The notes below the pieces were generated by a model that saw only the letters and a list, made by a program, of their open reading frames with translations, did no database searches and was not told the DNA's origin. Positions 9,229 through 64,000 of a stretch of 64,000 nt of DNA are shown here, one piece after another. Within the stretch, counting starts at the first letter, position 1; each line of letters starts with the position of its first letter. The DNA is from an uncultured Planctomycetales bacterium (GTDB lineage: Bacteria; Omnitrophota; Gorgyraeia; Gygaellales; Profunditerraquicolaceae): contig CAYHBB010000040.1 of the NCBI GenBank assembly GCA_964354795.1, forward strand, positions 12,593 through 76,592, written 5' to 3'. The translations under genes were made by a program, and so were the position numbers.

Positions 9229-9235
9229 AATATAC

Positions 9236-24656: not shown

Positions 24657-24659
24657 ACT

Positions 24660-25547: not shown

Positions 25548-25549
25548 GG

Positions 25550-27060: not shown

Positions 27061-27753
27061 TTATGACCTTAAAATCCGTGACAATCCCATCAGGTCAGCT
27101 TTCTCAAGGCTCACCCCGGCGCGATATTCATTCTCACCGATAGGCTTTGTCCAGATGACCTCGCCTCTGGTATAAACAGGCTCTCCCTTGTCAGGTATCT
27201 GCAGCCAGATCTCAACCGTCGTTCGCGGCATTAATTCTTCTTTGGTGCTAAAGCCAATACCCTTAGCGCTTACATCCTGAGTAAGAGCCAAGCCCTCTTT
27301 GCCGCTGTTTAGATCCAGGAACCGCACAGGAAATTTCACCACAAATCTCTGGAAAATCCTTTTATCTTCCATAGACTCTACCGCCTTTTCTTCGGGCTCA
27401 AAATCCTGCCACCAGGTTTTTTCCAGCGCCTCGCGGTGATTCTCGGTTATATAGCGGTAAATCTTTTCCTTGTCGCTGTCTGCGATCCTGGTAAAATACA
27501 GGCCGTAAGTATTCACCCCTTCGCTATGTTTATACCAGCCTACCCAGGCCTCAATATTCAGCACAAAAGTATCTGTTAGCACTAGGGTTAGCTTAATAAA
27601 CTTGTCTTCGGGAAGCTTAAGCGGCAGGGAAAACTTGACCCCCATCATGCTAATATCATCGACATGACAGTTGACGAATTTCTCGGCCCCGGCCAGTCTC
27701 ATCTGCGCCGGCATTCCTACTTTCCATCTGGCGAATCTTCTGCGTACTTCCAT
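27061..27753 (-). CDS. tandem PilZ-domain protein (putative c-di-GMP receptor)
   Basis: 230 aa. There are two PilZ signature pairs: RRRFAR ... DDISMMG (domain 1) and KRIFQR ... DVSAKGIG (domain 2). These match RxxxR + DxSxxG. Confidence 0.65.
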   Translation of the reverse strand: MEVRRRFARWKVGMPAQMRLAGAEKFVNCHVDDISMMGVKFSLPLKLPEDKFIKLTLVLTDTFVLNIEAWVGWYKHSEGVNTYGLYFTRIADSDKEKIYRYITENHREALEKTWWQDFEPEEKAVESMEDKRIFQRFVVKFPVRFLDLNSGKEGLALTQDVSAKGIGFSTKEELMPRTTVEIWLQIPDKGEPVYTRGEVIWTKPIGENEYRAGVSLEKADLMGLSRILRS

Positions 27754-27801: not shown

Positions 27802-27829
27802 ATCTTACCAAAAATTAACAATTTGTCAA
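27802..27829 (-). promoter_or_regulatory. sigma70-like promoter for the PilZ gene (-35 TTGACA, 16-bp spacer, -10 TAAGAT)
   Basis: On the minus strand, TTGACA (27829-27824) is followed after 16 nt by TAAGAT (27807-27802). This is ~45 nt upstream of the PilZ ATG. An SD AAGGAG lies 8 nt before the start. It sits in the 85-nt gap after the giant-gene stop. Confidence 0.35.
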
Positions 27830-27838: not shown

Positions 27839-30800
27839 TTAATTTTCCTCCTGGCCAAGATCCTGACTGTTTCCATCATTATCCGTATCGACATCTACAT
27901 AGTCTTTTCTGATAGCGAATAATCTGATGTTTTCTAATGCCTCACTCTTGAAATACGCCAGTCGCTCTGATAGTTCTTTATACATAGGGTAAACCGCGGG
28001 CCTCTTTTCCCATGAAGAGGCCTTTGCTTTTTCTTTTAACTTAAGTTGCATCTGGGATGCTTTTTCAAGGAGTGCCTTGGGATCATCCAATACCAGAGAA
28101 GGAAAATTCTTCTCGACATATTCCGCCTTTACCTGAATAAGAAATAATGTTTCTTGATCATTCAGCGGCTTCCCGGATATTTTATTGGCACTGTTGCGAT
28201 TAACCAGGAATCTGATATTTTCTATCCGTGAATAAATAAATATACCGTCATTACGGCCGATAAGCTGCCCGGATAGAGAAAGCTTTACCGCTTCATCATC
28301 CGGCATTAAGAAAACTCGCATTCCTGCGCGCGAACCCTCAACCACTATCACCTGTTGGGCCCCTGCTAATTTGGTGGATTTAATCAGCTCCGCTGTTTTT
28401 TTCTGGTCAAATTTTCCGATTGCGATCGGGGATTCAGGGACAAGATACGGGAAGTCGCTGATATCGGATATACCCGGGACAAAGATCTCAATAAGGCCAC
28501 CGATGGCATCAGGATTACCTGCCCCGCGCACAGAGTCAATTTTCGGCAAATTCTCGATCAGTTTCCCGATACAGTCAAGGGAGTCTTTTATGGCCTTAAG
28601 GCCTTCCGCGGCAAAACCCCTCTTATCATTAAGCGTAAGATCGAAATATGACTGTATTATATTAACCCTGTTATTGAATTTATGGATCACCGTCCGAAGA
28701 ACAGCCTGAAGGATCATTTTTGAAACCTTATCTTTCGCCATATTTTCTGCGATGTGTAACGTCTTGATCAAAGCATTACATGCGCCTAATGAACGGCTTA
28801 TTGCGGCACGTAATTCTTTTATTGCTTCTGAGCCTTCATCTGTAAGATGTTCCAACTTAAACCCGGATGTTATCGATCGCGCCTTATCGATATCGTTCCT
28901 CAAAATCCTATCCAGGACCCATCCCAGTTGACGCACAATCTGCAAAGGCGTTTTTTCGCCGCTTGGGTTGCGGATAGAATCTTCACAAGCCTTAAAAATA
29001 TCGCCTTCGCCTTTTTGCGCGTCTTTAAGGACTTTATTTATCCTGCAATAAGGGCTGCAAGAAGAGCTTTCGCCATGCACCAGCATCTGAGTAATGATCT
29101 CTCTACCGGATTCCGTCAACGCGAAATTCGTAAGCAGAGGGTCATCCGGCCAGAAATACGGCATAAAGTAATCGCATAATTCATGGCGAAAATCAGCTAC
29201 CCTCCTGCCTGACGTTACCCTATATCTTCTTAAGCTGCCGTTATGCCTGTCAGGGCTGTTTTCCCAGGCATACAAATAATCCTGATTAGCCCAGGTAAAT
29301 AATTCCCCGACTTCATGAGCCATGGATAGCTTCAGGACTTGCTTTAAGAAAGCGATTTTATCATCACGCGTAAATATAAGCCTCGTCGGTGAGAAGCCGG
29401 TAGCCTTGGCCATATCCACCAACTCCCCAAGGGATCCTTCCGGCATATCCGCAACCGTGATCTCCCCTTTTAATAAACCCTGAAGATCATTACGCTGTTC
29501 GAATATAGTAATGAATAGCGGGATGCTGCTCTCGGCCCGACGATAAGTGATCCCTTCCAGCAAGAATGCCGGCAACAGACTGACTGAATCCTGAATATCT
29601 TTATCGTTAAGAACCCTTATAAAGCCTTTCCTTGGCCCGCCTTCCGGAGCGCTCCTGCCGTATTCTCTGCGGTCTCTTTCTATGGTCCTTTCTACTACCT
29701 CCCTATCCTTACCCTCTTTAAGGGCCAACTCCAGGGAATATCTCTCCGCCTGCCTGAAGACATATCCTTCATCGGGATAAAACTCTGAGCTGGGTATTAA
29801 TAAGCGGCTATCTTTGGGATTAGAGTATAATCTGTTTTTCTTTGACTGGATCGTTGCGGCTAAGAGCGGGATGACGAAAAGCGCTGCTAATGCCGGCGGA
29901 GCATGAATTAATCCTGGGATTAAAATCGGGGCTAAGATAAAGCAAAGCGCCACCAGCACGAGGAACGCAATTAAAGTTTGGCCGGATCTACTAAAATTAG
30001 AACCGTCTCCTTTCTTGATACGGCTGGCAAGCCTGGCCACATCCGGCTTTTGGGGATGGGCCTTGCCATCAGACCGGGTTACGTCACCAAGGGCATCGAT
30101 TATATTTTGGATATCCATTTCATAATGCGTGTATAAACCTCCTAATGTCTTTCCCATGCCCGCTAATTTGTTCTTGAAATCACCCTTGGTCAGCTGGGAT
30201 AATCTTGACTTTCCGGCAGCTTCGAGAAGTTTGCGTATGAGGAACCGCTGGATCCTGACATCAACATTTTTCCAAAAGGTCTTTGGCCTATCGAAGAGCC
30301 TTCTTGCCGCTTCCTCCATTTTCTCCTCTGTCGATCCAATCTCCACCATTACATCGCCAAGGGCATCTACCATCTTTTGGACATTCATCCCATAATGCCG
30401 GCATAAACCTGCTAATGTCTTTTCTGAGCCCATCACCTGTGTATTAAAATCGTGCACAGTCAACTGGGATAATCTTGACTTTCCGGCAGCTTCAAGAAGT
30501 TTGCGCATGAGGAACCGCTGGATCCTGACATCGACATTTTTCCAACGAGATACTTTCCTCTCGAGGAGCTTTCTTGCCGCTTCCTCTATTTTCTTATCTG
30601 TCAATTTAAGTTTCACTTCCACATCGCCAAGGGTATCGATGATACTCGGGATATTCCGCCCGTAATAAGCGTATAAAGCGCTTAACGTTTTTTCCGTGCC
30701 CATTATCCCGGTCTCCATAAAATCAATATCCGTTAGTTGGGATAATCTTGACTTTACGCAGGCGCGCAGGAGTTCACATATAAGGAACCGCTGGATCCTT

Positions 30801-63800: not shown

Positions 63801-64000
63801 ATCGAAAGTGCCGGATGATAAATTGATTTTATCCTTCTGTAGGACCTATTTATGCTTTCTTCAAGAGAGTCTGATAAACTTACTCCGGAATTATCCACAT
63901 TAAAGATAAGATTTTGTATGCGCGAGGTATCGTCAAAATAAGCTGGCGTATGCGAAACATGCTTGCCCTTCGTCGCCCAATCGCGTATAAATACCGGGAT
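27839..64000 (-). CDS. giant (at least 12,019 aa) multi-module membrane protein: HAD-like + LOG-like N-terminus, ~15 TM-anchored HEAT-repeat modules, 3 polytopic blocks, M23 peptidase + SAM-MTase-like + 9x88-aa repeat C-terminal region
   Basis: The frame is uninterrupted from the stop at 27839-27841 to the window edge. The first in-window start codon is GTG at 63898 (ORF track), but upstream codons to 64000 have no stop, so the feature is given as 5' open. Recognisable domain motifs and codon-level conserved repeats appear throughout (see the domain features and findings). Confidence 0.85.
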   Translation of the reverse strand: MPVFIRDWATKGKHVSHTPAYFDDTSRIQNLIFNVDNSGVSLSDSLEESINRSYRRIKSIYHPALSISARPQNLGRLPFKAVISDLDGTLAHTLKEVPESVMQKLLYLLQLGVQVAIVTTQSYKEVEKYLIKAVPLQHRSLLHNLTVYPATGSQGFGFDQNGQPLKEALYDTAKAIMSDAQLDKWREIIDDLLAEYGLTKPVADDNGEIIYNSVKIIDAGSQIIVRLKERAFLRRQVYKRLEEQLEKDKLLIELKEIGHSSIRMTMKEVDKSLAVKHHLTKVCLRRFGAVPKPNEVVILGNSFDESGDDREMMVKGAKVFSVGGRIHHRHLRAGIEFYPFHGWRGGDYVLGELINLIRIRMKIEDKGEGKGQDKGVLLENKPQEELGAKTEKDRSEELGVRAEAIRREFPGIKIGVIGATMPSKGYSAEIGQELGRKLSQYLGAEGFVFTGGVGGVGADVFKGMCSENKAGRERFFALLPEGLTPDRKYQEAAGDKDVKVAHIGRGMFERRIGVGKVADIVIVLNGSGGTMHEAVTTLQANKKLIVLNHGGIGAKLYAAKTNNSLTLELATEGFRQEDLENIVLADIASIAEALRKALGVNEGAFSRGPPLINKALSAILVPILLALPFFAAFSSTASYAEEVRITETEKKAEIEKLIEDLRRKNYWLPNDGALAIYRLKDIGLPAVPYLIEALTTTYTTDDPIIRALAKIGSPAVPALIEASKNENYKVRSGAIEALGQIGPTAKEAIPNFIQALKDKEWYVRASAAEALGKIGPAARNAIPGLIKAMKDEEKYVRSSAAEALGDIGPVAKDAVPALIEALKDQEKDVRSSATEALGKIGPAAKDAVPALIETLKDADYWVCHCAAEALKKIGPEGKDAVRALIELLNNQKACYEVADVLSGIGPAAKDAVPSLIKLLEDKTYIGFCYKAAEALGNIGSEAKDAVPHLIKALNSYGERESATNALVKIGSPAVPFLIDVLKDEKSDCRNHAAKVLSDIGAPAITALLEELKNKNIDKAVVARILDESGWKPQNPKEMIMYAVAKGDLEALADLRIGPETKEAVPYLIAALKNNDYDDHKYAARLLGRIGPAAKDAVPALVEALNDYGAGEEAVTALGNIGPEAKSAIPALAKELKEHSFLPAEKAESIVSALAKIGDPAADCLIESLNGSNQSLVEASVFGLQTIAKDTSDITLLLRLMEIRQSGVSLSALNRICQVGDISIVQRLQFIASNEFKNSKEERQAAKEALEAIKARTSAGEWAKAFPAKEPLKFKKYLKPAGIIVGALAALYVIASAISYIRARIRSGRSNSKFTALFLIFALSSCVFAPAVVFAQNTNTDTQPVITQPDETKQKKIEELIGKLEDKDWRVRETAIRTLAEIKDPAAVEPLIRVLRGVNYDQIIFIRDSAAYALGEIGDPRAIAPLMSALDDESGNVGFIEAPVALAKIGQPAVEPLLKAMKDSTWRVHRGAIIALGELKEARAVDLLIKDLLDPQVRSYAAESLQKIMESTDDASVLLKILEINTWRVGNSENFGCGSRKEYIKEARSDVIRTRLAAIRRLSVTADTNAALMLRLVSQNEIKYSKEEREAAKKALEVIKARTPAGEWAKAFPVKEPHSFKKYLKPAGIISGALVALYAIVSIISIIRARIISKKAQNQPGQGQNTTTLNSVLPILPLASIDKLILLSPYLVYTSLVLASLAILIYALYKLTQKQRAPPAKALAFILALLATLTGQPNTTTALAQEPATNTTITQFQPDEATQKRIEELIRKLKDVHGYDADALGKIGSLAVPALIEVLKDKEPFVRHRAAEALGKIGPAAKDAIPALIAALKVGRPGAGTAAEALGQIGPDAKDAIPALIEILKDKGWWGRESAAEALGKIGPAAIDAVPALSEALKSEKFIVRYAATKALGQIGPTARDAIPALINALKDKNESIRLCAAEALDQIGPPAKDAMPKLIEALKDEYEDDSVRRKAAEALGQIGPDAKDAIFLLIKALKDESIRLSAAEALVKIGPPAIPSLIEALEDEYSNVRSCAAEALGKIGPPAIPSLIEALKHGRYEVRWRAAEALGQIRPAAKDAVPALIEALLYQSSDSRVREKAAKALESITVFTQDVPTLVRLLDEGGFRIAAITRLGEVGDITALFKLQLIAQNEIKFSKAESQAAKEALEAIKLRVTPEEWAKATAKQPLNLKKYLKPAAIIAGILILLYPVICLISFIRARKRSPLTQGPQDKANTNSLNSLIPAHVLAFMTNIIPADANLICVGLLVLGIVILFSLRKLTQNTRAPPVSKNVKAPAFLLVFLSFLLGISSTATTYAQDTNNNPAITQTDEATKKKIEGLITALKDEDRHVRESAIEALGEIGEKEAFPVLIAALDGSEIVHQSAVKALRYFDQALPEWYIRRYEKIELLTVALTKGRKDTRLAAAKVLGEFRDSTAVGLLVEALRDADVDVSSAAASSLKSIAESTQDVPALLRILDTRRNISITGEFEAVRIITIKRLGNVGGSNVIPRIQLIVQNEIKHPKEERQAAKEALGAIKARTPAEEWAKAFTAKEPLSLKKYLRPAGITLAVLILIYPVVCFISYIRARISLRKIRAGKSNPTFLTLLFAFILPFSALYSLTVNAQDTKANPATNQIDKAIQEITKELIEKLIDQDPRVRQDAAAALTKIGPPATPALNELLELLADTGHNLPVFTGGLSSPRDVAIKTIVRMDKRLTVPLLTEALKNKFSSIREGAIIALGEIRDKQAIPALIEALSSSRYFTCGIGWPYHSLYDQGFGPIFHTLAQFDESIVPEIIKISGKASSDCKINLEETVFGFGQSAIPYLEAALSSKDFETRTFAVRVLDKLSWTPRDKELKILYFVAKCDRKGLSETGNQAIPYIIDAISLKPGFSSSDNFIKVLVGLRTPESWEAIIGLISAGKGFVNDSVRDSVKDEIRSSKNNGLIMKILAVPDSEIRVAAIEAIETFEDLQITKILLKTLSDEDESVRMASENTIIKYISGSPSFDMLVEFARSDNLRVRAKALSALGQLKDKKAIRVFSENIFNKDKELQKQVIFCIGELGPDTRELVPELLKLLKGKDLPVLLTTIEALGKIQDSRAVEPLIELLKDGHSEGAREVVYSSLTNIIEVTQDVSLLIKLLDSKDAKIYLISIRRLGQVGGIVALPRIQFIAANEFKHSQQERQAAKQALEAIRARTPAEEWAKAFPVKEPRNIKKYLKPAGMIAGISAALYIIVSAISYVRARIKRGLIQKQKGQGPTSTTCLNIFLPLAFMDKFATVNTDLIYAALAFIALAGIFYGISKIAIKKIGAQESPVVGLAWAGNFLAYACFVALFVYKFTAGNIVGGLAAAIIAMTLVANILFQSFVLIKAVSETRQVERYTAIKCHAKSVIFWGVLFLTLHLINAALLSWGVIIWGALLCPCFAKCLEATRSLWTASSFTLEGKIGLTPFIWIVPVFISVYLCLYWYPKFNMAVSDTSSLLEKLSKGQPYFIIEPKKDEQDGFSNYGLRDLPETRHSYVLSRDYEQEKKLRNEWADEILSNRGQFIQQIVQLGEAGDINTVSQLQFIMQNEIKYSKEERQAAKQALEAIKARVTPEEWAKKSATPEKELVLKKYLKPAGIIAAIIILLYPVACLISFIYARIKSRKTNPKLLSILAVSALPYFAILPETTHAQDTNSTQIQSVAQTDEASQKKIKELIRKLMNNEDRNVRKEAVRAFGKIEDPGAVTSMIEALGDESYIVRKTAAEILGVLRDSKAVSPLIKALGDGYTNAYSRARYSYHNEVGQVAADALAKIGQPAVDSLIGALKNENLWVRENAVRGLGQIKDPRAFEALAEALGDKHGGFRSHVIEALGKSKDVRASEIIIKALTDDYLFVRESAAKVLGELKDPRAVEQLIKALRDEEMPVREAAAKALREINDPRAVKPLIDALKDKDVTVRQIASESLVKIGPPAVDSLTKTLKDRDVILRVLAAEILTKIKDPRAIGPLINALQNKDTHEVAINSLKIFSESTEDIAGLRALLNVEESDINLQAIKKLAEIGDIDVASELQFIAGNEFKHSKQEREIAKQALEAIKARTPAEEWTKATAQQPLNFKKYLKPAAIAGGVFALFYIITSIISYVLVRTKSTGLQKKNDSVRKEKQIRQQSQSKYAKSKTKSLITILIIVFLSNILPNQRKAYAQYDDQRSIEEILDLSSKIRVLGESKDKRAVQVLIRALNDGDILIKAEAAKALGKIADEEAIPALIKALKDQYISKTASEALADIGYPAVPGLIGALKDEDRFIFKSAGEALMKIGSPAVPALIHILKEKSYYVRKQAADSLIYIGPSVIKPILQELRISSNEYLSKAGSEIIVGIGQPAIPELISALNDENLSFIREKIAEILDKLKWEPKTNQEKIPYFFAKHDWAGLVKIGPDAVEPLIKIIVDKDSYFNIEAAKALKEIGDPRAIEPLRAYTKTIIEKLERGSGFGREYLVKALGEIGGQEAIGALIKALKDYSVREEAVKALGKLGEIGDPKATEALIKALEDYSVREEAMEALGKIGDIRAVKPLNSIALNEIKYNEGQRNNAKAALEQIKNKVSPREWEKATSKSYKFKQFMKTAGVVLGVSALIYMIVLSISYIRARERSRKLLSGKFNSSLLIMLLAFILSPALFSSTASYAQGTNTSIEPEVTQIDVVNEKKIEELIEVLKNDGDEWVRNHAADALGKIGDRQAIPALIEALKDRSGSVRCSAVQALVKIGLPAGPALIEELKVTKDEDLDVRESIIITLGRIGEKQALPYLIGLLKDKTPRMRDCAVTALGRIGDKQALPYLIEALRQESWGVRSSAAQALGNLGDKEAVSVLLEALKDDEGSVRRYTIEALGKVGDIEVVSRLQAIAFNEIKYNKYERQAAKEAFEAIKARTTAEEWATVAGEAKKEPLNFRKYFKPAGIIAGTLALIYVLASAISYLISRSRSRAAENKINDKNGSSNLYGANLMLAPLFNDSGITTVLVCIAVAAIIAETIYRSLRWLMHRNSIIKGYDTYEKPQLMFSAIGFILVTLGLTGLYVVHNNLIFIPLAGKIIFTVFALNCILALRASLLMMKEKDEDLFGRAVPIGFTILNGLLLALFIINPGLISFWLIVSSVFALSVLISILSLDEFGWRARLGYFALFVLPVIIYYSFKIPTAFKDNDALIREYIEREEAERTESSGPSNFRNKYWTIPVLAGRSSRQISPLMIELLTDRDKRKSDLALTVLDAARWKPGTYHEKVAYALAQNRGKDSFVDDISSLGPQAIKPLIELLPRGDSKMREGMVEVLSRLGWRPKNDVEKIKYFIAKEDWKALSSLKNEAAPFLVFLLEDDCLRIREGAVAVLKEAGWSAASEEEKILYLIANKDWPELVRIGPPAVGALGRLKCKESIRALGEIGNEETARTLIAFGVEDSDVEEALLKVGKQATGPLIDEFSAVRWDARASSRKRAVIEMLGRIQDAGAVAALVKFLNENEEGMKWEISSALQPIADSTEDIEILIKLLEAKTSDIRKFAVIKTRLLIESTKDASVAIRSLKLKDSDLRLAAINRLGQIGALDAVDDLRAIASNEIKHSKKERDAAKQALEAIMARVSLEELAKAASAPEKKPLNLKKYLKPAGIIAGALAAFYAIISIISFVCARIRSRLTQRPQNQNNTTSLNSFAPVIPLAFAGSIATINLSPVIYAVLGIFVLGILAYLIQRLIQEIRAPPAQGKAALPFLKTMSEVVKIGKEERIDKDTLAKVVRFGTESRGGAGFIVGIIAVVICVTLIIFNVIYTYAAAFALFAAILIPVILLQSDSGVALFGKGVDLVRFSFRFSIFPLRFESISREYDYSSALNPEHFYILRRFKKEIGERLFDDIRNQARKQFAKGEDLLVLGAVIEIAYRMHQQNKDIRHLLEIPVPVAIDVSGNLSEFKVNLDIVEQILTKLSDAALIQDKGSFRAYFEKFDKDLRPINAEQTVESIGLLEYRLKQQGFDIQNFYDEVFKGMSKATLSGALDIIFEIIRHGLFPTEQLINLAKSAADRIALYRDWQAMLTQIKAGRFDINNPMHTELEYSNFRRIVDNSRIIAMQFKNLSYKDYIRFSGTGCHGLSGLPDSGTIEHELVYAAYEALKLKEFIEAVKVQSASFGRDVWIMPNFTLGRFSAAFIEGDLKLDDIDIVFAKVGSSETHTNPYYIDPKFVRSQILYRMLAERPVVIVVDTTQHNRYPDAHQGYLNLAIALNEIISGEDESRYAHLVYRDAKFIRDLRANNDFKAIKKIIQKEFDNISERGLKDTSLYGFRFWNPRGEKLHIRQYRQNAGYPDVLNIRDLKSPAFIFVNTVVTDKELPDSVKKMAGNTGHTPGYFDDKEYLRIVHLFFKFTEDGVHLADHLYELEMRDLESLMPKSQRKKAVLPRSVPVAKTEAVKMDDAKADPVATTNNYNEIKVRRLIDELTDRNAKIRADAAGALGDYAGNETIAQALRKALLNDKGREVRYWAASSLGVIGLKDSGKDLIAALHNDSAVEVRKVSARALKKFADPSTIPALAKSLEDERSDEVRQEVIQALRNIKDNGVLLVLLKTIKEDKDPIIRTMAAEAYLDVGGKAVVSEAIKYLNDKDETLRAIIAEGLGDLTDSLAEKTAEVVEVLSELLLVDKSEEVREKTAWSLGQLGDPGALGAVEKALKAEGSKKVRETLSWARDRLIKAKASGIVVTERKKVKVIEPQIDKQEKAPQEVSSAVAIQGVKIDLSKINGFIFGLEDCIATLKQPVSLAINDHLVNLLRCGKHIAIITDETEDNLESRVWAQIPKELLKNLHLYSNTGTRGFGFDERGNKVGYYRFELSANDRQTILEVVKNALTGLSYKIKRQDYKVKIKISSKLAKERRKFASEIEEALRAKGLSAEIIFQGEESLNILRFGPFEAARDFISRTGLSEENLIIVGNKARSFGMERRLLASFPRAVSINVGCNSPTIAEQKQNIIQTELKNLIATQSILDTIGGNARTEIKSSPQKPRAPNSLLRRFWILPFFFILSFLAITNPNLAYAQETTNTAIQTTAQTDQTTQQKIAELIKQLKRRASSDECCSAADALGKIGPAAKDAVPALSEALKDKLWYVRSSISVAKALGEIGPAAKDAVPALIRVLQYQYPEVRSAAAEALAKIGPAAVPALDEALKDEDWLARSPDAEALVKIGQPAVEPLIKVLSGKDPKARSLAAEALGKIGDRTAVEPLIKALGDAGYTEWSFRSSAAEALGKIADQRAVEPLIKALGHTCEDVNRSTLGALLSLAGNLKDVPALLRLTEAGDKESRIRLIAIQRLGQFSDTSAIRRLNLIASNKIRFKEAEREAAKGALNAIKARVSTEEWVKATGAAEKKPLQLKKYLKPAGIILGAIILFYPIICLISFFRARLKSGRFNSMLLSLFLMFTLFSLVFLFANACTKQTKELNAYAQKRDELLTGLWDDDQKVRKHSVEELAKMLEDDNVLKGLIHYYNLRSWRGHDEVAEATVNDVLQKTLAPIVWRIFCIPSNDSRSDNDIKEACEAIRKGELDLESITRLLHKDLCDEKPIEILCALQDPRTIEPLIEELKEGEIFGHTGDNIVKVLGEKRDPRAILPLLESRRLWDNSNLSVYSEEATALKKICEETKNRDLLATHLTNAVPAVRARTIVALGACIVDSKGDHEALKKYFDTLIRMKEDKNEEVQRAIAYALKEFKEVRETIGSLNSVSALLSLLTIDDPDVLQVVTNTLIKIGQPAVEPLIKLLKDQDQAKHKIVISVMRSIAQSTQNIPVLLKLIEVNEGGINLLAIQRLGQFSDIAVIPNLQFIAQNEFKYSSGERQAAKGALEAIKARVSLEEWAKATGAAEKKPLQLKKYLNAAGIIAGALAALYAIIAFASYISARIRSRLNRSNLKLLTILLMFALSSSIFYSPATYAQDTNSNPATTKTDEATKKEIERLVVFLDYGDWDIRFSAAKALAELKDPRAVKPLITALKDEYGHVRPSVVEALAKIGSSAVEFLIAVMKNDEVFDRQSAAETLKLIVESSSDNPALLRLLKVNDYDFRLLSLKRLVKVGDLSAIPKLQFISQNEIKYSKEERQAAQEAMEAIKARVSSEEWAKATSKQSLSLKKYLKPVGLILGVFALFYIFASAVSYVFSRKNSTVRQKLKGKDVKKITQANCAILPLALSTPFVNDGIGLGIVVIVMLAGVFVLYYFMRKMGNERIFDEKHPAAVNWGVTGMIFNILSFGSIAIYLLVLKLCSAVATPFFAKVILAAMVINLLLFAISLICELRDDGLKGNSPSLGFMLINAFFIVLYLLNPALITAGTLIWGFFTAVAFLLVLDKLERRECLPGFLIIFLPGIIFLSFKINTSIKETPVLIEEFSSENASPLLAYKRDNWIVPTLENRNAAVPQMVDLLTDADNEKVSLAIKVLDMAGWKPRTSDEKISYTTAKYNYNELSAKLFEIESRAPGSILILLTDRRDSVRSAAIAALKKKDWCPRGEAEEIDYAIACKDWQKLINIGKPSLPRLVKHLSNDYAQERKSVVSVLTSLEWVPASEEDKIRYMAAKQDYEGLVNSAPAAAEYLIRDIFVQDPEIKKFAITVLVKIRPEKTIGPLMQMFGGFSEDSSFAEEALVKIGEPAVEPLVQSLKDTRRYGRLPAARTLARIDSERKVCALIRLVDDKDEEVSKIATEGLRATVENTTNLSALSEVTKAKHPEISSVAIRRLGEIGDTSVIAALRDISVNEIKQSKQIRNSATAALEAIKARATPEEWTKATAAPEKKPLNLKKYLKPAGIILGVGVIFYVFVSIISFIYTRIKSRKINSTLFIVLVMSALSWAVFSSTAIYAQETNNAAKPLIAQTVKVTQERIEEIISSLEYYSWSNNRREDIQSRITELARIGEPAVPVLIKALRGKASSLVVKALIEIGQPAVPGLIEALKDKDNLQCRLCALEALAGLGKINTSVVPVLIGLLRDKKEEINIRGTSAWVLGQISDRQAIPALIEVLKNEKQFLRGCSARSLSKLDWKPQDLQEKIAYLIGMKDWGALADIGPPAFSALAEEFKDLYSFEDMEAAAIALGKTGDRQAVPVLIEIYKIYGSESVAKILIGIGDQQAVSAFIENLNSRSNDRLRSVAACSLGELKDLRAIEPLIKALSDEDEGVRNSAASSLISITESVSDRDTLLKCLKVKHLNIRLAAIHRLSRFGDISAVPSLRFISANEIKHSKAERQAAQAALEAIRARVAPEDWAKVTAVTETKPLSLKKYLKPVGIVLGIGVISYIFVSIISFICARIRSGRGIDTSAGKSGSSRIESLWGICAIFAFAGLVLAPLFALHVAGPALAALFAFPLLSTTLQSATDDAKFTFVTEKSIRSAISYLQAQGSPVSLHEIAILLLSNENTVRRFVDEHPDLRRALLVVGSSYDREISLAIERLKRKGMPVSVRSLAQETRYKGKMGLAESAIVWRANNDPKVQEKIREAIGKRGRLKDDGKESITSEREDRILYLIDLISIDIGEIADSVLENSRDLKEIDDLIAVARDRVKELRELFEANPEEIIKQRKILISLIDEIAGIQDELEENESKISEEADKAFQEWRLALRELAACPVLKWLMSFKLPGWFKKWVFEPDMLFEAQKYWWGEKKGRLSTFSHEGIDLYSYEDSQGKIQYVQPGQGVPLIYGGKIVRIIDDFIGNTIFVNHEVYDGEGKQLYTIYGHVQPEQGIEEGRICRAQDIIVRIADPRQKLTSAPAHLHLTMAWIAKEIKPADLNWQIVNDPEKATLIEPYKSRDLSDDKEGPDTFGASSILIMIGVASAAIGALAALTAVHGLALILGACVLGAVVSAAEKPRIGENVIVAHSSSKIYEEAIKEWGVIKAADGTVDIYYIPGNFTARKKPDAFGNYPDYFVTIKNRLSGFEFSIGRDDIATHFPPEKGTVEAAIAKKRKQASLYAKRLDDISRFGQALSPDERASLNELLARSGVGDDDFGIIDTLYAKLESAIKVRKALDKLKVIMKRKGMAEFYFTPNERAFLDSAIQRYESQGPIDLLTREEITALDEIYNKLTCAQTALEKARRAWARGDTRRANEAVDDHFINATVAHLANLYLANRYARAIGEGRVQNVMDIGAGRSAFYTVIKQIGKAMPMAKIVDIEKDVESYSEGQNPNKVLVESAATLDRPIDLSQAPLSDYYRAGAYDVLVSNFVFVHLTPKERLKVFVHANRLLRASTSEEPNERTGEFAITLPLNCQPCEGFFSILTELGFEIVSDSPINNTLDDRIYNSCKSDMGKDAADALRSLVEKKFYVLILRKVKDVTRVPEIEEKDLLFSKSEIRPLGKNKPETTEVDPVQLEALYLAANLSADAIISPSSDRVRKTDLAGKNPELEDILFELRTLKPFLPARTRHQLELLLVQWYDAQDHVRSDFAQRLSEISGQLEPYYSVAKIKSHLPEVKAWYEETGADEFDARLEATDYMSKDDLIRLKRRRDRAVGLTPAEIEKHFPGFIDALLTSAAMDFPGAVSLLKRWPKGGKFLPEEINEVYYEQAKGETLLLKKGTIHWTKVPVPVQRFLICELLKASGKSRLSRLASSDFDIKVLGAKNTLRGFYNHYGSSVQKVVDALGDVELELTNEEIEEAAKKLFERQRTLWENVDVRVQQFLIRELLEASGKSRLSQLTLDAFANAKILGSKKALSGLCYHYGGNIQQMVDALGDVELELQEEQIEEMGKKLLEEKIASWSNVDARIQRFLIRKLMEASGKSKLSLLTTTNFSTIKIMGSGKTLRGLFCHYGSDIQNIIDALGDVELELTEEKIGEVARNLLERQNIHWRKVDVRIQRFLIHELLGETGKLKLSQLNAPDFKDTRIMGTGKRLWGFYIYYGRDVAKIIDALGDVELELTEGQIEEAARKLLEKQKTFWENVDVRIQRFLIRELLEETGKSRLSQLTVHDFDNEVLGSGKTLTGLYNHYGQNIQNIIDALGNVEIELPAEQIVEAAKKLFAGQNIFWENVDVRIQRFLIRELLEETGKSRLSQLNAYDFYIEVLGSGKTLIGLCCHYGENIQNIIDALGNVEIELPAEQIVEAAKNLLEEGVDRWKNVDVRIQRFLICELLRACVKSRLSQLTDIDFMETGIMGTEKTLSALYAYYGRNIPSIIDTLGDVEVKLKLTDKKIEEAARKLLERKVSRWKNVDVRIQRFLMRKLLEAAGKSRLSQLTVHDFNTQVMGSEKTLAGLCRHYGMNVQKMVDALGDVMVEIGSTEEKMEEAARRLFDRPKTFWKNVDVRIQRFLIRKLLEAAGKSRLSQLTKGDFKNKLAGMGKTLGGLYTHYEMDIQNIIDALGDVTRSDGKAHPQKPDVARLASRIKKGDGSNFSRSGQTLIAFLVLVALCFILAPILIPGLIHAPPALAALFVIPLLAATIQSKKNRLYSNPKDSRLLIPSSEFYPDEGYVFRQAERYSLELALKEGKDREVVERTIERDRREYGRSAPEGGPRKGFIRVLNDKDIQDSVSLLPAFLLEGITYRRAESSIPLFITIFEQRNDLQGLLKGEITVADMPEGSLGELVDMAKATGFSPTRLIFTRDDKIAFLKQVLKLSMAHEVGELFTWANQDYLYAWENSPDRHNGSLRRYRVTSGRRVADFRHELCDYFMPYFWPDDPLLTNFALTESGREIITQMLVHGESSSCSPYCRINKVLKDAQKGEGDIFKACEDSIRNPSGEKTPLQIVRQLGWVLDRILRNDIDKARSITSGFKLEHLTDEGSEAIKELRAAISRSLGACNALIKTLHIAENMAKDKVSKMILQAVLRTVIHKFNNRVNIIQSYFDLTLNDKRGFAAEGLKAIKDSLDCIGKLIENLPKIDSVRGAGNPDAIGGLIEIFVPGISDISDFPYLVPESPIAIGKFDQKKTAELIKSTKLAGAQQVIVVEGSRAGMRVFLMPDDEAVKLSLSGQLIGRNDGIFIYSRIENIRFLVNRNSANKISGKPLNDQETLFLIQVKAEYVEKNFPSLVLDDPKALLEKASQMQLKLKEKAKASSWEKRPAVYPMYKELSERLAYFKSEALENIRLFAIRKDYVDVDTDNDGNSQDLGQEEN
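30085..32430 (-). repeat. nine tandem in-frame 264-nt (88-aa) repeats in the giant gene
   Basis: The repeated protein unit is NVDVRIQRFLIRELLE(E/A)(T/A)GKSRLSQL...GSGKTL.GLY.HYG.NIQNIIDALGDVE(L/I)EL.EEQIEEAA(R/K)KLLE. The nucleotide motif gaggaaccgctggatcct recurs on the plus strand at ~30241, 30508, 30781, 31048, 31309, 31576, 31846, 32107 and 32380. Copies 5 and 6 are nearly identical at the nucleotide level (264-nt offset, 30851 vs 31115). Confidence 0.85.
33200..33780 (-). other. class I SAM-dependent methyltransferase-like domain within the giant protein
   Basis: Motif I VQNVMDIGAGRSAFY (hh-D-h-G-x-G). An acidic residue follows at the end of beta-2 (IVDIEKD). Downstream there is a YDVLVSNFVFVHL motif-II/III-like segment. 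Confidence 0.45.
34790..35165 (-). other. M23 (LytM/lysostaphin-type) metallopeptidase domain within the giant protein
   Basis: FSHEGIDLYS (HxxxD) is followed ~80 aa later by YGHV and SAPAHLHLTMAW (HxH). Spacing and beta-rich context (GKIVRIIDDFIGNTIFVNHE) match M23 peptidoglycan endopeptidases. Confidence 0.65.
43080..43810 (-). other. second, degenerate HAD-like domain inside the giant protein (internal duplication of the N-terminal domain)
   Basis: GFIFGLEDCIATL ... HIAIITDETEDNLESRVWAQ ... NTGTRGFGFDERGN aligns with the N-terminal VISDLDGTLAHTL ... VAIVTTQSYKEVEKYLIKA ... ATGSQGFGFDQNG. The nucleophile Asp is replaced (DxDG becomes GxED). Confidence 0.5.
57450..58740 (-). repeat. HEAT_2 (PBS-lyase-type) tandem repeat array with high nucleotide-level identity
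   Basis: The 31-aa unit (...VR..AAEALGKIGPAAKDAVPALIEALKD...) repeats ~12 times. The plus-strand motif cctaaggcttcggctgc recurs at ~57790, 57880, 58060, 58365, 58470 and 58565. Shadow ORFs on the plus strand (57876..58166, 58344..58670) show the same periodicity. Confidence 0.8.
62300..62800 (-). other. LOG/SLOG-like Rossmann domain within the giant protein
   Basis: IGVIGATMPS...FVFTGGVGGVGADVF...IVLNGSGGTMHEAVT resembles the LOG-family glycine-rich motifs (GGGxG ... PGGxGTxEE). Confidence 0.4.
62900..63780 (-). other. HAD-like phosphatase domain (HAD-IIB-like) at the N-terminus of the giant protein
   Basis: Motif I VISDLDGTLAHT (DxDGT). Downstream blocks VAIVTTQSY and ATGSQGFGFDQNG follow, and a late GNSFDESGDD motif-IV-like segment. 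Confidence 0.55.

What the first reader, a model, noticed from the sequence alone, without database searches (positions are those of the whole stretch)
27839..64000. Single ORF of at least 12,019 codons, open at the window edge: a giant multi-module membrane protein
A 36,060-nt minus-strand frame has no stop codon and continues past position 64000. The first in-window start is GTG at 63898 (ORF track), but the codons upstream to 64000 have no stop, so the real start may lie outside the window. This is not a chance ORF. It carries recognisable domains (HAD-like, LOG-like, dozens of HEAT_2 repeats, M23 peptidase, SAM-MTase-like), and its repeated modules are conserved at the protein level more than at the nucleotide level. 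Genes this size are extremely rare in bacteria. Comparable giant multi-TM proteins have been reported in a few uncultivated lineages such as Omnitrophota and may be implicated in cell-wall degradation, but I cannot match this particular architecture to any characterised protein.
Basis: partly seen in the sequence, partly recalled or inferred. Interest (0 to 1): 0.95.

Follow-up and report, generated by a model that had tools for sequence, protein, structure and literature searches.

The report
Omnitrophota giant membrane gene, cassette-built
This is a real, uninterrupted gene of more than 12,000 codons from an Omnitrophota bacterium, one more example of the giant membrane proteins already known from that phylum, and it appears to be built from about 15 fused copies of a secreted-protein cassette that each keep a complete signal peptide.

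Summary
The minus-strand frame 27842..64000 has 12,053 sense codons and no stop (TAA at 27839-27841). Chance probability is about 1e-309, and the other five frames carry 285-912 stops. Coding continues to the window edge, so GTG 63898 is not the start. The true start lies at least about 200 codons upstream.

The host is an Omnitrophota bacterium: apgM, MnmG, QueG-like and PHO4 are syntenic with a Lac Pavin Omnitrophota MAG at 83-91% amino-acid identity. PilZ, a sugar ABC importer and secreted GH2-like/TPR proteins follow the gene. This is the downstream context published for Omnitrophota giant genes, so it is a new member of a known kind.

Anatomy:
- Enzyme-like blocks: HAD plus SLOG, a paralogous X-HAD block, an M23-like domain, a SAM-methyltransferase module, and nine 89-aa helical repeats.
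- About 15 cassettes of a HEAT array followed by 'EAIKAR..EEWAKA..KKYLKPAG', a TM helix and a basic cluster.

Twelve cassettes start with a full internal Sec signal peptide ending xYA|Q, the same as the signal peptides of neighbouring genes.

The M23-like domain belongs to a subfamily without signal peptides, so it does not support cell-wall lysis.

My inference is that Sec translocation restarts at each internal signal peptide and signal peptidase I probably cuts there. This is untested.

The parts
27839..64000 (-). Giant ORF, in-window part: 12,053 sense codons plus TAA stop. The 5' end lies beyond position 64000. Amino-acid numbers in this report count from the window edge (aa 1 = 63998-64000).
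63821..64000 (-). aa 1-60: C-terminal tail of an 'X domain', cut by the window edge. It is paralogous to aa 6345-6381.
63161..63757 (-). HAD-IIB-type phosphatase domain (aa 82-280, DLDGT motif)
   Evidence: Pfam Hydrolase_3 E 3e-7, above GA; NCBIfam Cof/HAD-IIB; motif
62309..62767 (-). SLOG (LOG-like) domain, aa 412-564
   Evidence: Pfam LDcluster4 E 5e-10, above GA; TIGR00725
62081..62188 (-). First internal Sec-type signal peptide (aa 605-640, ...FSSTASYA|EE). It separates the cytoplasmic N-terminal block from the first HEAT array.
46601..62080 (-). Cassette region I (aa 641-5800). It holds 10 junctions of 'EAIKAR..EEWAKA..KKYLKPAG' + TM1 + basic cluster, with the KKYLKP motif at aa 1274, 1620, 2193, 2560, 3216, 3613, 4095, 4595, 4923 and 5619. 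HEAT arrays lie between them. Internal signal-peptide cleavage motifs follow aa 1334, 1743, 2318, 2625, 3673, 4180 and 4660.
53600..54334 (-). Multi-TM block 1 (aa 3223-3467; 7 clear helices plus one weak hydrophobic segment)
   Evidence: no family match
48515..49213 (-). Multi-TM block 2 (aa 4930-5162), 25-29% identical to the other two blocks
   Evidence: AF2 model poor
44846..46003 (-). Internal X domain (aa ~6000-6385). No family or PDB sequence match. It is homologous to two copies in L001 and to the N-terminus of P0002.
43988..44707 (-). HEAT array inside the middle block, which contains no TM segment (aa 6432-6671)
43211..43768 (-). Second, divergent HAD-like domain (aa 6745-6930), paralogous to aa 86-163
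   Evidence: E 1e-9; weak S6PP / sucrose-phosphatase-like hits
42911..42988 (-). Internal signal peptide after the middle block (aa 7005-7030, ...NPNLAYA|QE)
35981..42910 (-). Cassette region II (aa 7031-9340). It holds 5 junctions, with the KKYLKP motif at aa 7363, 7854, 8109, 8769 and 9243. Internal signal-peptide motifs follow aa 7433 (degenerate), 7916 and 8829.
38960..39655 (-). Multi-TM block 3 (aa 8116-8347)
34712..35209 (-). M23-like metallopeptidase domain (aa 9598-9763; HEGID, YGH and HLH motifs), of a subfamily without signal peptides
34538..34657 (-). 40-residue hydrophobic unit (aa 9782-9821; TM - His/Gly turn - short helix), read as a hairpin
   Evidence: side assignment inferred from P0005, where M23-like and MTase sit in one soluble protein
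32672..34525 (-). Conserved ~620-aa methyltransferase module (aa 9826-10443). The class I SAM-MTase core is at about aa 10093-10199 (window 33404-33724).
30011..32410 (-). Nine tandem 88-91-aa helical repeats (aa 10531-11330; 264-270 nt period; 60-85% nucleotide identity)
   Evidence: pLDDT 84; no fold match
29849..29968 (-). Hydrophobic hairpin unit (aa 11345-11384) with basic flanks on both sides
27842..29848 (-). C-terminal ~670 aa with no detectable relatives or family
27061..27753 (-). PilZ-domain gene immediately downstream, with a sigma70-like promoter (TTGACA-16-TAAGAT) at 27829..27802
   Evidence: context described in 10.1101/2023.11.21.568195
17325..26869 (-). Downstream context: sugar ABC solute-binding lipoprotein (25550-26869), two permeases (24660-25547, 23802-24656), and four secreted proteins with GH2-like TIM barrels and/or TPR repeats (21493-23802, 20235-21446, 18959-20254, 17325-18962)

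Best explanation
The ORF is one real chromosomal gene of an Omnitrophota bacterium. It has at least 12,053 codons and probably at least about 12,260. It sits at the conserved 'giant-gene locus' of that phylum.

The protein is a membrane-stitched mosaic. Three blocks are enzyme-like:
- N-terminal: X domain tail, HAD phosphatase, SLOG.
- Middle: X domain, HEAT, HAD-like.
- C-terminal: M23-like peptidase, SAM-methyltransferase module, nine 89-aa helical repeats, and an orphan 670-aa domain.
The N-terminal and middle blocks contain no TM segments. The C-terminal block is interrupted only by two short hydrophobic units that I read as hairpins. I place all three blocks in the cytoplasm.

Between these blocks lie about 15 cassettes. 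Each cassette is a HEAT-repeat array ending in the private motif 'EAIKAR..EEWAKA..KKYLKPAG', then a TM helix and an Arg/Lys cluster. In 12 cases the basic cluster doubles as the n-region of a complete Sec signal peptide: a 12-16-residue h-region and a polar c-region ending small-x-Ala|Gln.

Proposed mechanism (inferred). Each internal signal peptide restarts SecYEG translocation, so the HEAT arrays end up on the periplasmic side. Each following TM1 acts as a stop-transfer anchor. Signal peptidase I probably cuts at least some of the xYA|Q sites. The 36-kb gene would then deliver a set of membrane-anchored periplasmic HEAT scaffolds together with membrane-tethered cytoplasmic enzyme modules.

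The gene most likely arose by tandem duplication and in-frame fusion of 'signal peptide - HEAT - C-terminal anchor' genes. Its cellular role is probably the one proposed for this class: an envelope scaffold for contact with host or prey cells, working with the adjacent PilZ, sugar importer and secreted GH2-like proteins.

My step probabilities: gene real 0.95; member of the Omnitrophota giant-gene class 0.9; topology as described 0.65; cleavage at some internal sites 0.5-0.6.
For: Reality of the ORF. No repeat is long or similar enough to mediate mis-assembly: the longest exact repeat is 82 nt and module copies are 60-85% identical.

Taxon and locus: MnmG is 87% identical to the Lac Pavin Omnitrophota MAG, and the flanking genes are syntenic at 83-91%. 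PilZ, SBP, two permeases and GH2-like/TPR genes lie downstream, as published.

Architecture.

Internal signal peptides:
- There are 12 sites. Ala is at -1 in 12/12, a small or aliphatic residue at -3 in 12/12, and Gln at +1 in 11/12.
- The -1 Ala is encoded by all four GCN codons, so the residue itself is under selection.
- The N-terminal signal peptides of three neighbouring secreted proteins end the same way: SYA|QE, ARA|QE, CFA|QN.
- The same rule-based scan finds none in five other long proteins totalling 17,315 aa. One of these is a 6,065-aa protein with about 28 TM-like segments.

Topology:
- Single signal-peptide-type helices separate the HAD-SLOG block and the X-HAD block from the HEAT arrays.
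- The loops between TM1 and the signal peptide carry 4-6 positive charges.
- Relatives of the M23-like domain lack signal peptides. In P0005 the M23-like and methyltransferase domains sit in one soluble protein.
- West-Roberts et al. also place HEAT repeats on the non-cytoplasmic side.

Fusion origin: in the relative L001, the HAD-SLOG protein ends with a stop, and the next gene starts with its own ATG and an AFA|Q signal peptide. M23-like, methyltransferase-module and X-HAD-SLOG units exist elsewhere as stand-alone proteins.
Against: - No reads, transcripts or peptides were available, so contiguity and expression are not shown directly.
- Topology rests on a hydropathy scan and the positive-inside rule, not on a trained predictor.
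- The N-side flank of TM1 (KKYLKP) is also basic.
- The topology is consistent only if a weak, conserved hydrophobic segment in the multi-TM junctions spans the membrane, and only if three 40-residue hydrophobic units are hairpins.
- Some conservation of the cleavage motif could be inherited from the duplications rather than selected.
- Cleavage is not demonstrated for any giant protein, and neither giant-gene preprint mentions internal signal peptides.
- One HEAT array (aa 6432-6671) sits in the block I assign to the cytoplasm.
- Features common in published 'Archaeovorins' were not found in the window: SecA_DEAD, glycosyltransferases, glycoside hydrolases and NUDIX.
- Function as a host-contact scaffold is taken from the literature and the genomic context. 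It was not tested.
Confidence: 0.5

Rival explanations
1. The gene and architecture are as described, but the protein stays as one uncleaved chain of about 1.3 MDa. The signal-peptide-like helices are fossils of fused genes. They now serve only as the second helix of membrane hairpins that sew the HEAT arrays to the inner membrane, giving the single-molecule 'coat' or scaffold pictured in the literature.
For: - Published descriptions treat Omnitrophota giants as single membrane-anchored proteins with many TM helices.
- The cleavage-site motif could persist partly through common descent of the cassettes.
- The site after aa 7433 has a degenerate, charged c-region, and four junctions have no signal-peptide-like helix at all.
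Against: - The h-regions are only 12-16 residues long and are followed by polar c-regions with helix breakers. These are the features that distinguish cleaved signal peptides from TM anchors.
- Ala at -1 is invariant across 12 copies and uses all four codons, while the h-regions have diverged almost completely.
- The motif equals that of neighbouring genuine signal peptides.
- From general knowledge, signal peptidase I cuts accessible internal sites of this kind.
Confidence: 0.35
2. Assembly artefact: several paralogous HEAT/TM genes were collapsed or concatenated by the assembler into one false ORF.
For: The region is repetitive at the protein level. No read data could be examined. A related long-read contig (L001) is fragmented into many small same-strand ORFs.
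Against: - Concatenating separate genes would bring in stop codons, intergenic DNA and start regions. There is not one stop in 36,159 nt, and the coding signature is uniform.
- Repeats are only 60-85% identical, and the longest exact match is 82 nt, inside the 89-aa repeat array. Assemblers had no long identical sequence to mis-join.
- The cassette order includes unique segments throughout.
- The fragmentation in L001 looks like indel error: homologous segments continue in alternating frames.
Confidence: 0.03
3. The protein is chiefly a prey cell-wall-degrading enzyme complex, with the M23 peptidase acting on peptidoglycan outside the cell. This is the reading suggested by the first reader and the 2023 preprint title.
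For: An M23-type domain with intact metal and catalytic residues is present. Secreted GH2-like proteins and a sugar importer lie downstream. This is the published hypothesis for the class.
Against: - The M23-like domain belongs to a subfamily whose stand-alone members lack signal peptides or TM segments (127/135). It is fused to GNAT or methyltransferase domains in soluble proteins.
- No glycoside hydrolase, lytic transglycosylase or other wall-active domain was found in the 12,053 residues.
- By residue count, HEAT scaffolding dominates.
Confidence: 0.1

Closest known systems
Omnitrophota giant proteins of the 'Archaeovorin' type (West-Roberts et al. 2023, bioRxiv 10.1101/2023.11.21.568195). 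The type example is the 39,678-aa protein of Velamenicoccus archaeovorus LiM (PMC10066038).
   Same: Same phylum. Many TM helices. HEAT repeats are the commonest domain and are placed on the non-cytoplasmic side. Methyltransferase and peptidase domains are present. A PilZ gene lies immediately downstream, followed by a solute-binding protein, ABC permeases and glycoside hydrolases.
   Different: Only about 12 kAA is visible here, against more than 30 kAA in the published set. No SecA_DEAD, C39/S8 peptidase, glycosyltransferase, GH, NUDIX or GGDEF domain is in the window. The upstream T2SS-like locus cannot be seen. The junction motif and the C-terminal 2.7 kAA have no close relatives.
'Tandem-repeat scaffold' class of Omnitrophota long proteins (Nielsen & Lui 2026, bioRxiv 10.64898/2026.06.07.730766), e.g. 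KR0015B_u3039754_1735 with 13 HEAT_2 copies
   Same: At least 10 kAA. One Pfam family (HEAT_2) dominates by copy number. TM density is about one per 200-370 residues. [quoted passage not shown] GH2 genes flank it.
   Different: About 53 HEAT_2 stretches are present here. That study suppressed internal signal-peptide calls as chunking artefacts, and it does not describe secretory cassettes.
Polyproteins processed by signal peptidase at internal signal sequences: flavivirus/pestivirus structural polyproteins in the ER, and the Bradyrhizobium cytochrome b-c1 (FbcH) precursor. This comparison is from my own knowledge and was not checked here.
   Same: A stop-transfer helix, a short basic cytoplasmic loop, then an internal signal peptide with a small-x-small site, repeated along one chain.
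   Different: Those have 1-4 sites, and their cleavage is demonstrated. Here there are 12 sites in a cellular protein of more than 12 kAA, and cleavage is only inferred.
C-terminal tripartite sorting signals (LPXTG/sortase, PEP-CTERM/exosortase, GlyGly-CTERM/rhombosortase). This comparison is from my own knowledge.
   Same: A short conserved motif (KKYLKPAG), then a TM helix, then an Arg/Lys cluster, at the end of each passenger domain.
   Different: The signals here are internal, not at a protein C-terminus. No NCBIfam or Pfam sorting-domain model matches. No candidate sorting enzyme was identified, and the three multi-TM blocks have no invariant Ser/His/Cys/Asp/Glu residues.
PBS-lyase-type HEAT repeat proteins / alphaRep scaffolds
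   Same: The HEAT arrays match alphaRep and PBS-HEAT sequences strongly (E 1e-32).
   Different: Those are small soluble proteins. Here at least 82 units are spread over about 16 arrays, most of them inferred to be periplasmic.

Membership tests
Omnitrophota giant genes (Archaeovorin-type locus, West-Roberts 2023) | Encoded in an Omnitrophota genome | tested here: met
   MnmG is 87% identical to Ca. Omnitrophota MAG LacPavin_0920_SED3_MAG_45_14, and the next best hits are also Omnitrophota. apgM, MnmG, QueG-like and PHO4 are syntenic at 83-91% amino-acid identity.
Omnitrophota giant genes (Archaeovorin-type locus, West-Roberts 2023) | ORF >90 kb (the size cut-off of the 46 published examples) | tested here: inconclusive
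   36.2 kb is visible and the 5' end lies outside the window. It passes the >20 kb (PMC10066038) and >=10 kAA (Nielsen & Lui) cut-offs.
Omnitrophota giant genes (Archaeovorin-type locus, West-Roberts 2023) | Numerous transmembrane helices | tested here: met
   About 57 hydrophobic segments by hydropathy scan.
Omnitrophota giant genes (Archaeovorin-type locus, West-Roberts 2023) | HEAT repeats are the most frequent domain and lie on the non-cytoplasmic side | tested here: met
   About 53 HEAT_2 stretches and at least 82 units. The side is inferred from signal-peptide-type helices and charge bias. One array (aa 6432-6671) lies in a block I assign to the cytoplasm.
Omnitrophota giant genes (Archaeovorin-type locus, West-Roberts 2023) | SecA_DEAD-like domain and an N-terminal C39/S8 peptidase (present in most full-length examples) | tested here: inconclusive
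   None among all Pfam hits with E<=0.01 over aa 1-12053. The N-terminal part of the protein is outside the window.
Omnitrophota giant genes (Archaeovorin-type locus, West-Roberts 2023) | Glycosyltransferase, glycoside hydrolase and NUDIX domains | tested here: not met
   Not detected in the window part. Methyltransferase and peptidase domains are present.
Omnitrophota giant genes (Archaeovorin-type locus, West-Roberts 2023) | Downstream PilZ gene(s), then solute-binding protein, binding-protein-dependent permeases and glycosyl hydrolases | tested here: met
   PilZ 27061-27753, SBP_bac_1 25550-26869, two BPD_transp_1 genes, and GH2-like TIM/TPR proteins at 17325-23802. Described in the paper, section 11.
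Omnitrophota giant genes (Archaeovorin-type locus, West-Roberts 2023) | Upstream type II/IV secretion-like gene cluster | not testable with these tools
   The region upstream of the gene lies beyond position 64000. The source contig was not found in the collections.
Tandem-repeat scaffold class of Omnitrophota long proteins (Nielsen & Lui 2026) | >=10 kAA with one Pfam family dominating by copy number | tested here: met
   12,053 aa in the window. HEAT_2 has 36 + 17 stretches, and other families occur once each.
Peptidase family M23 (LytM-type metallopeptidase) | Sequence match to the family model | tested here: met
   The direct Pfam hit is below threshold (18.8 vs 28.7 bits). aa 9598-9763 is 35-47% identical (E to 1e-43) to a family whose members pass the threshold (P0011 46.3 bits). 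The family profile hits solved M23 endopeptidases (8s3m, E 4e-6).
Peptidase family M23 (LytM-type metallopeptidase) | HxxxD and HxH zinc ligands plus the catalytic His | tested here: met
   HEGID, YGH and HLH are present in the giant and invariant in 18 aligned family members.
Peptidase family M23 (LytM-type metallopeptidase) | Extracytoplasmic location, needed for a peptidoglycan hydrolase role | tested here: not met
   127 of 135 small homologues have no hydrophobic segment. P0005, P0044 and P0098 are soluble multi-domain proteins, and P0008 is a GNAT fusion. The side in the giant itself is only inferred.
Class I SAM-dependent methyltransferase | Match to the Methyltransf_11/25 models and a glycine-rich motif I | tested here: met
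   The direct hit is sub-threshold (14.2 vs 21.2 bits). Homologues P0004 and P0009, aligned over about 620 aa (E 3e-54), pass the threshold at the equivalent position. The motif 'VMDIGAGRS' is present. SAM binding was not tested.
HAD superfamily, subfamily IIB | Family model above threshold and the DxDGT nucleophile motif | tested here: met
   Hydrolase_3 scores 30.7 against GA 20.9. 'SDLDGTL' is at aa 84-90. Cof/HAD-IIB NCBIfam hits are below their cut-offs.
SLOG / LOG-like superfamily | Family model above threshold | tested here: met
   LDcluster4 scores 39.7 against GA 26.3. P0001 and P0002 carry the same precomputed family.
Sec signal peptides cleaved by signal peptidase I | Basic n-region, 10-16-residue h-region, polar c-region with small residues at -3 and -1 | tested here: met
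   12 internal segments: -1 Ala in 12/12, -3 S/T/A/V/I in 12/12, +1 Gln in 11/12. They match the native signal peptides of neighbouring genes.
Sec signal peptides cleaved by signal peptidase I | Position at the N-terminus of the precursor, and actual cleavage | tested here: not met
   All 12 are internal. Cleavage cannot be tested with these tools. The claim is therefore 'works like', not 'is' a classical signal peptide.
Known C-terminal sorting domains (PEP-CTERM, GlyGly-CTERM, LPXTG and similar) | Match to a curated sorting-domain model, and location at the protein C-terminus | tested here: not met
   No NCBIfam or Pfam sorting-domain hit for junction-containing segments. The motif is internal. 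Only the motif-TM-basic layout is shared.

The most novel reading that the evidence does not exclude
Each cassette is a complete export unit: a Sec signal peptide, a HEAT passenger, and a previously undescribed C-terminal sorting signal ('KKYLKPAG' - TM - Arg/Lys cluster, laid out like GlyGly-CTERM or PEP-CTERM). The 36-kb gene would then be a polyprotein 'factory'. Signal peptidase I would cut at the front of each cassette. An unidentified sorting protease would cut at the back. About 15 HEAT proteins would be released into the periplasm for export to the cell surface by the type II secretion-like system that usually precedes Omnitrophota giant genes. This would give a general explanation of how and why these bacteria encode giant membrane proteins.
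Probability: 0.1. Interest if true: 0.85.

Novelty: new member of a known kind. Interest (0 to 1): 0.45.

Why it matters
Giant genes take up a large share of the small genomes of Omnitrophota, which are ultra-small, host-dependent or predatory bacteria. Their function, membrane insertion and evolutionary origin remain open questions.

This example adds no new kind. Its regular build, however, suggests how such proteins may arise and be handled:
- Assembly: in-frame fusion of tandemly duplicated 'signal peptide - HEAT - anchor' genes.
- Threading: Sec translocation restarts at each internal signal peptide.
- Processing: signal peptidase I may cut the chain into pieces.

These points give predictions that can be checked in existing metaproteomes, namely peptides starting with Gln or pyroGlu after each xYA site. 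They could also be checked in all catalogued giants.

The analysis also warns against reading an M23 hit as evidence for cell-wall lysis, because this subfamily has no signal peptide and is probably cytoplasmic.

Tried and rejected
- Source contig and the missing 5' end. The N-terminal 600 aa found no relative in GTDB genome contigs or JGI metagenome contigs. The exact PilZ protein is not on record. The upstream end could not be recovered.
- Word-indexed homologue searches. The C-terminal 2,764 aa gave no hit, although exhaustive HMMER later found 551 relatives for part of it. The 15-sequence junction profile gave no hit.
- Degenerate DNA pattern for KKYLKPAG in metagenome contigs. It matched 96 stretches of DNA with one match each (80 listed). 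None of the loci held encodes the junction by tblastn, so these are chance matches.
- AlphaFold2 of a multi-TM block with its 3 paralogues. pLDDT was 42, so the model was unusable and no fold search was made.
- PDB sequence searches of the X-domain block and the C-terminal domain. They returned only alphaRep/HEAT hits or nothing.
- Idea that the multi-TM blocks are exosortase-, rhombosortase- or CPBP-type proteases. Rejected for now: there is no family hit and no invariant Ser/His/Cys/Asp/Glu among the three copies.
- Idea that M23 outside and MTase inside supports the topology. Dropped after the relatives proved to lack signal peptides.
- Recoding or an alternative genetic code. Rejected, because neighbouring genes use all three stop codons.
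- Rfam and tRNA scans of the window found nothing.

Full report
1. OBSERVATION

The minus-strand frame from 64000 down to 27842 holds 12,053 sense codons without a stop and ends at TAA 27839-27841. The ORF listing reports the same ORF from the first in-window GTG at 63898, giving 12,019 aa. From the base composition a stop is expected every ~17 codons, so the chance of none in 12,053 codons is about 1e-309. The other five frames of the same stretch contain 285-912 stops. The GC1>GC3>GC2 pattern is the same in each of the twelve 1,000-codon blocks examined. The 22 neighbouring genes end in TAA (14), TGA (4) and TAG (4), so the standard code applies.

2. THE 5' END

The ORF is open at the window edge, and the GTG at 63898 is not the start. 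Residues 1-130, including the 34 codons upstream of that GTG, are 70% identical to a translated stretch of a related ENA contig (L001). Residues 1-357 are 62% identical to protein P0002.

Residues 14-48 are paralogous to aa 6345-6381 of the same protein, which is the end of an internal ~380-aa 'X domain'. In P0002, 206 residues of X domain precede the position that aligns with the window edge. In L001 an X domain lies directly upstream, in a shifted frame, and further homologous segments (X, HAD) lie on the same strand for thousands of bases. The full protein is therefore at least about 12,260 aa and may be much longer.

3. IS IT AN ASSEMBLY ARTEFACT?

I could not look at reads. The internal evidence argues against collapse or concatenation:
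- The longest exact direct repeat in the ORF is 82 nt, inside the 89-aa repeat array.
- All repeat families are only 60-85% identical at the nucleotide level.
- Unique segments are interspersed throughout.
- Concatenated paralogous genes would have brought stop codons and intergenic DNA with them.

4. HOST AND LOCUS

The rest of the window is ordinary bacterial chromosome, with all called genes on the minus strand. The genes are PstS, GreA, PhoR/PhoB, PhoU-like, PHO4, MnmG, apgM, a class II-like ribonucleotide reductase, LacI and ROK.

MnmG is 87% identical to a Candidatus Omnitrophota MAG from Lac Pavin sediment, and the next best hits (66-71%) are also Omnitrophota. apgM, MnmG, QueG-like and PHO4 are syntenic with that MAG at 83-91% amino-acid identity and ~85% nucleotide identity.

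Immediately downstream of the giant gene lie:
- a PilZ gene with its own sigma70-like promoter;
- a sugar-type ABC solute-binding lipoprotein and two permeases;
- four secreted proteins with GH2-like TIM barrels and/or TPR repeats;
- ROK and LacI regulators.

West-Roberts et al. [quoted passage not shown] Nielsen & Lui (bioRxiv 10.64898/2026.06.07.730766) also report GH2 genes as the dominant catalytic flank.

5. ARCHITECTURE (amino-acid numbers count from the window edge)

(a) aa 1-604. X-domain tail, HAD-IIB-type phosphatase (Hydrolase_3 above threshold, DLDGT motif) and a SLOG/LOG-like domain (LDcluster4 above threshold).

(b) aa 605-5800 and 7005-9340. HEAT arrays separated by 15 copies of a highly conserved junction: 'NEIK.SK.ERQAAK.ALEAIKAR...EEWAKA....PL.LKKYLKPAGII', then a TM helix (G..A..Y.I.S.ISY) and 'RARIRS'. 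Pfam finds 36 + 17 HEAT_2 stretches. A home-made 31-aa HMM finds at least 82 units, none before aa 616 or after aa 9243.

(c) After TM1 the junctions come in two forms.
- A short basic loop and a second hydrophobic helix.
- A conserved weak hydrophobic segment followed by more helices. In three cases this form is a ~250-aa block with 7 clear helices (aa 3223-3467, 4930-5162, 8116-8347). These blocks are 25-29% identical to each other and have no family match.

(d) aa 5803-7004. A middle block with no TM segment: X domain, eight or so HEAT units, and a divergent HAD-like domain paralogous to the first.

(e) aa 9340-12053.
- An M23-like domain (9598-9763).
- A 40-residue hydrophobic unit.
- A ~620-aa methyltransferase module (9826-10443).
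- Nine tandem 88-91-aa helical repeats (10531-11330).
- A second hydrophobic unit (11345-11384).
- An orphan ~670-aa C-terminal region.

6. CHECKING THE WEAK DOMAIN CALLS

The word-indexed search found no relative for the C-terminal 2,764 aa. The exhaustive HMMER search with aa 9290-10489 found 551.

M23-like domain.
- aa 9598-9763 is 35-47% identical to a large family of ~200-aa proteins and to some multi-domain ones.
- Members of that family pass Pfam's Peptidase_M23 threshold.
- HEGxD, YGH and HLH are invariant in the family and present in the giant.
- The family profile hits solved M23 endopeptidases.
- The family has no export signal. The N-termini are hydrophilic, and 127 of 135 small members have no hydrophobic segment. 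P0005, P0044 and P0098 are soluble multi-domain proteins, and P0005 also carries a methyltransferase-like domain. P0008 is a GNAT fusion.
- The fold is M23, but a role in attacking peptidoglycan from outside is not supported.

Methyltransferase module. aa 9826-10443 aligns over ~620 residues (27% identity, E 3e-54) with P0004 and P0009, whose Methyltransf_11 hits pass threshold at the equivalent position. The same module also ends a 6,065-aa TM-rich protein, P0062.

7. INTERNAL SIGNAL PEPTIDES

Twelve times, the helix that follows the basic loop is a textbook Sec signal peptide rather than a generic TM helix. It has a basic n-region ('RARIRSGRSNSK'), a 12-16-residue h-region, and a polar c-region with Pro/Ser/Thr that ends small-x-Ala. 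Gln follows, then a T/N/Q-rich linker ('..TASYA|QGTNTS', '..PATYA|QDTNSN', '..AVVFA|QNTNTD').

- Ala is at -1 in 12/12 and is encoded by GCA, GCT, GCC and GCG.
- Position -3 is S/T/A/V/I in 12/12.
- Position +1 is Gln in 11/12.
- The h-regions have diverged almost completely.
- Three genuine secreted proteins encoded just downstream have N-terminal signal peptides ending SYA|QE, ARA|QE and CFA|QN.
- As a control, the same rule-based scan found no such site in five other long proteins totalling 17,315 aa, including P0062 with ~28 TM-like segments.
- Two of the twelve (aa 605-640 and 7005-7030) are the only hydrophobic segments between an enzyme-like block and the following HEAT arrays.

Each cassette therefore reads as: signal peptide, HEAT passenger, amphipathic 'EAIKAR..EEWAKA' helix, KKYLKPAG, TM anchor, basic cluster. 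The basic cluster is at the same time the n-region of the next signal peptide.

8. TOPOLOGY (inferred)

I assume the HAD, SLOG, methyltransferase and signal-peptide-less M23-like domains are cytoplasmic. The signal-peptide-type helices then run N-in/C-out, TM1 runs out-to-in, and the basic loops stay inside. This puts the HEAT arrays of the cassettes in the periplasm.

West-Roberts et al. found HEAT repeats only in predicted extracellular regions, which agrees.

The model is self-consistent under two conditions. The conserved weak hydrophobic segment of the multi-TM junctions must span the membrane. The three 40-residue units 'TM - His - turn - short helix' (at aa 9297, 9782 and 11345) must be hairpins. 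The unit at 11345 has basic flanks on both sides, which fits a hairpin.

No trained topology predictor was available, so I give this about 0.65.

9. MECHANISM (inferred)

The layout implies repeated cycles of Sec translocation during synthesis. An internal signal peptide opens the channel, the HEAT array is threaded out, and TM1 stops transfer.

The c-regions are complete and under selection. From general knowledge, signal peptidase I cuts accessible internal sites of this type, as in viral polyproteins in the ER and the rhizobial cytochrome b-c1 precursor. I consider cleavage at some or all of the 11-12 sites slightly more likely than not.

The products would be ~250-700-aa periplasmic HEAT proteins, each held in the inner membrane by a C-terminal hairpin, together with membrane-tethered cytoplasmic enzyme modules. 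The main rival is that the chain stays intact and the helices serve only as hairpin anchors.

Neither giant-gene preprint mentions internal signal peptides, polyproteins or signal peptidase I processing. Nielsen & Lui explicitly suppressed internal signal-peptide calls as chunking artefacts.

10. ORIGIN

The units exist separately elsewhere:
- X-HAD-SLOG as ~1,000-aa proteins (P0001, P0002).
- The M23-like domain as ~200-aa proteins.
- The methyltransferase module in 1-4-kAA proteins.

In L001 the HAD-SLOG protein ends with a stop, and the next gene starts with its own ATG and an AFA|Q signal peptide.

Cassette copies differ at half of their third codon positions, so the duplications are old. 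The junction motif has no detectable relative among 5.8 billion proteins or in the metagenome contigs. This fits the report that 80% of >=10-kAA Omnitrophota protein clusters (30% identity, 80% coverage) are singletons.

11. COMPARISON AND NOVELTY

By host, size class, TM richness, HEAT dominance, methyltransferase/HAD content and especially flanking genes, this gene belongs to the known Omnitrophota giant-gene phenomenon. That phenomenon is documented in PMC10066038 (giant ORFs >20 kb in 77/116 Velamenicoccia genomes and in other classes), in West-Roberts 2023, and in Nielsen & Lui 2026 (5,761 proteins >=10 kAA, with a 'tandem-repeat scaffold' class that includes HEAT_2).

It lacks several features frequent in published 'Archaeovorins' in its visible part: SecA_DEAD, C39/S8 peptidase, glycosyltransferases, GH and NUDIX. 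Its N-terminus is missing, so strict Archaeovorin membership is left open.

I rate it a new member of a known kind. What it adds is a clear, testable hypothesis about cassette construction and signal-peptidase processing.

12. WHAT LED NOWHERE

- The source contig and the upstream region could not be found.
- The multi-TM block model was unusable.
- The 89-aa repeat folds confidently into a small helical domain but matches no solved structure.
- The X domain and the C-terminal 670 aa remain without any assignment.
- Rfam and tRNA scans of the window were empty.

Noticed in passing
window 17325-23802 (native signal peptides) and the 12 internal sites in 37514-62083: Gln at +1 of signal-peptidase I sites appears to be the rule in this Omnitrophota. 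Three of five SPI-type signal peptides of neighbouring genes, and 11 of 12 internal ones, end xxA|Q. A 'Q-rule' with pyroglutamate formation was described as specific to Bacteroidetes (PMC5837995, seen).
   Followed up: partly
L001 (ENA ERZ25039512 contig_79112), locus positions ~1-14450: This related contig carries X-HAD-X-HAD-SLOG segments on one strand, but in alternating reading frames and split into many small called genes. It looks like a homologous large gene broken by indel errors of a long-read assembly, or a pseudogene. The arrangement differs from the window: HAD-SLOG sits at the end, followed by a separate secreted protein.
   Followed up: partly
window 34712-35209 and proteins P0005-P0152: There is a large family (hundreds of 50%-identity clusters) of ~200-aa M23-like proteins with intact zinc ligands but no signal peptide. 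Some are fused to GNAT or methyltransferase domains. Their function is unknown and they are presumably cytoplasmic metallopeptidases.
   Followed up: partly
[not shown]
   Followed up: yes
window 44846-46003 and 63821-64000; L001 6677-7423 and 9441-10046; P0002 residues 1-257: A conserved ~380-aa 'X domain' always precedes a HAD domain. Its motifs are VW(V/I)xPN..GRF, GS(T/S)E(S/T)H, IIVVD(G/T)TQH, YPDA..GY, FWNP.G and IF(A/V)N(S/T)V. It has no Pfam, NCBIfam or PDB sequence match.
   Followed up: partly
window 27802-27829 (minus strand): A near-consensus sigma70-type promoter (TTGACA - 16 nt - TAAGAT with an extended TG) sits in the 85-nt gap between the giant gene's stop and PilZ. PilZ can therefore probably be transcribed independently of the 36-kb gene.
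   Followed up: no
window 1-64000: All 23 called genes lie on the minus strand, and GC skew is negative almost throughout. This is consistent with a single replichore and strong co-orientation. No tRNA or Rfam family was found in 64 kb.
   Followed up: no
window 41702-41780 (aa ~7408-7433): One cassette has an atypical start: '...FLFANACTKQTKELNAYA|QK'. A Cys follows a hydrophobic stretch, which may be a degenerate lipobox, 13 residues before the usual AYA|Q motif.
   Followed up: no
L002 (JAPLLR010000048.1, Lac Pavin Omnitrophota MAG) versus window 5000-11200: The closest genome is syntenic around MnmG but lacks the PhoB gene between the QueG-like gene and PHO4. If synteny continued, its 34.5-kb contig would end inside an orthologous giant gene. 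Yet no relative of the giant's C-terminal 2.7 kAA was found in the protein database. This hints that the giant gene differs even between close relatives.
   Followed up: no
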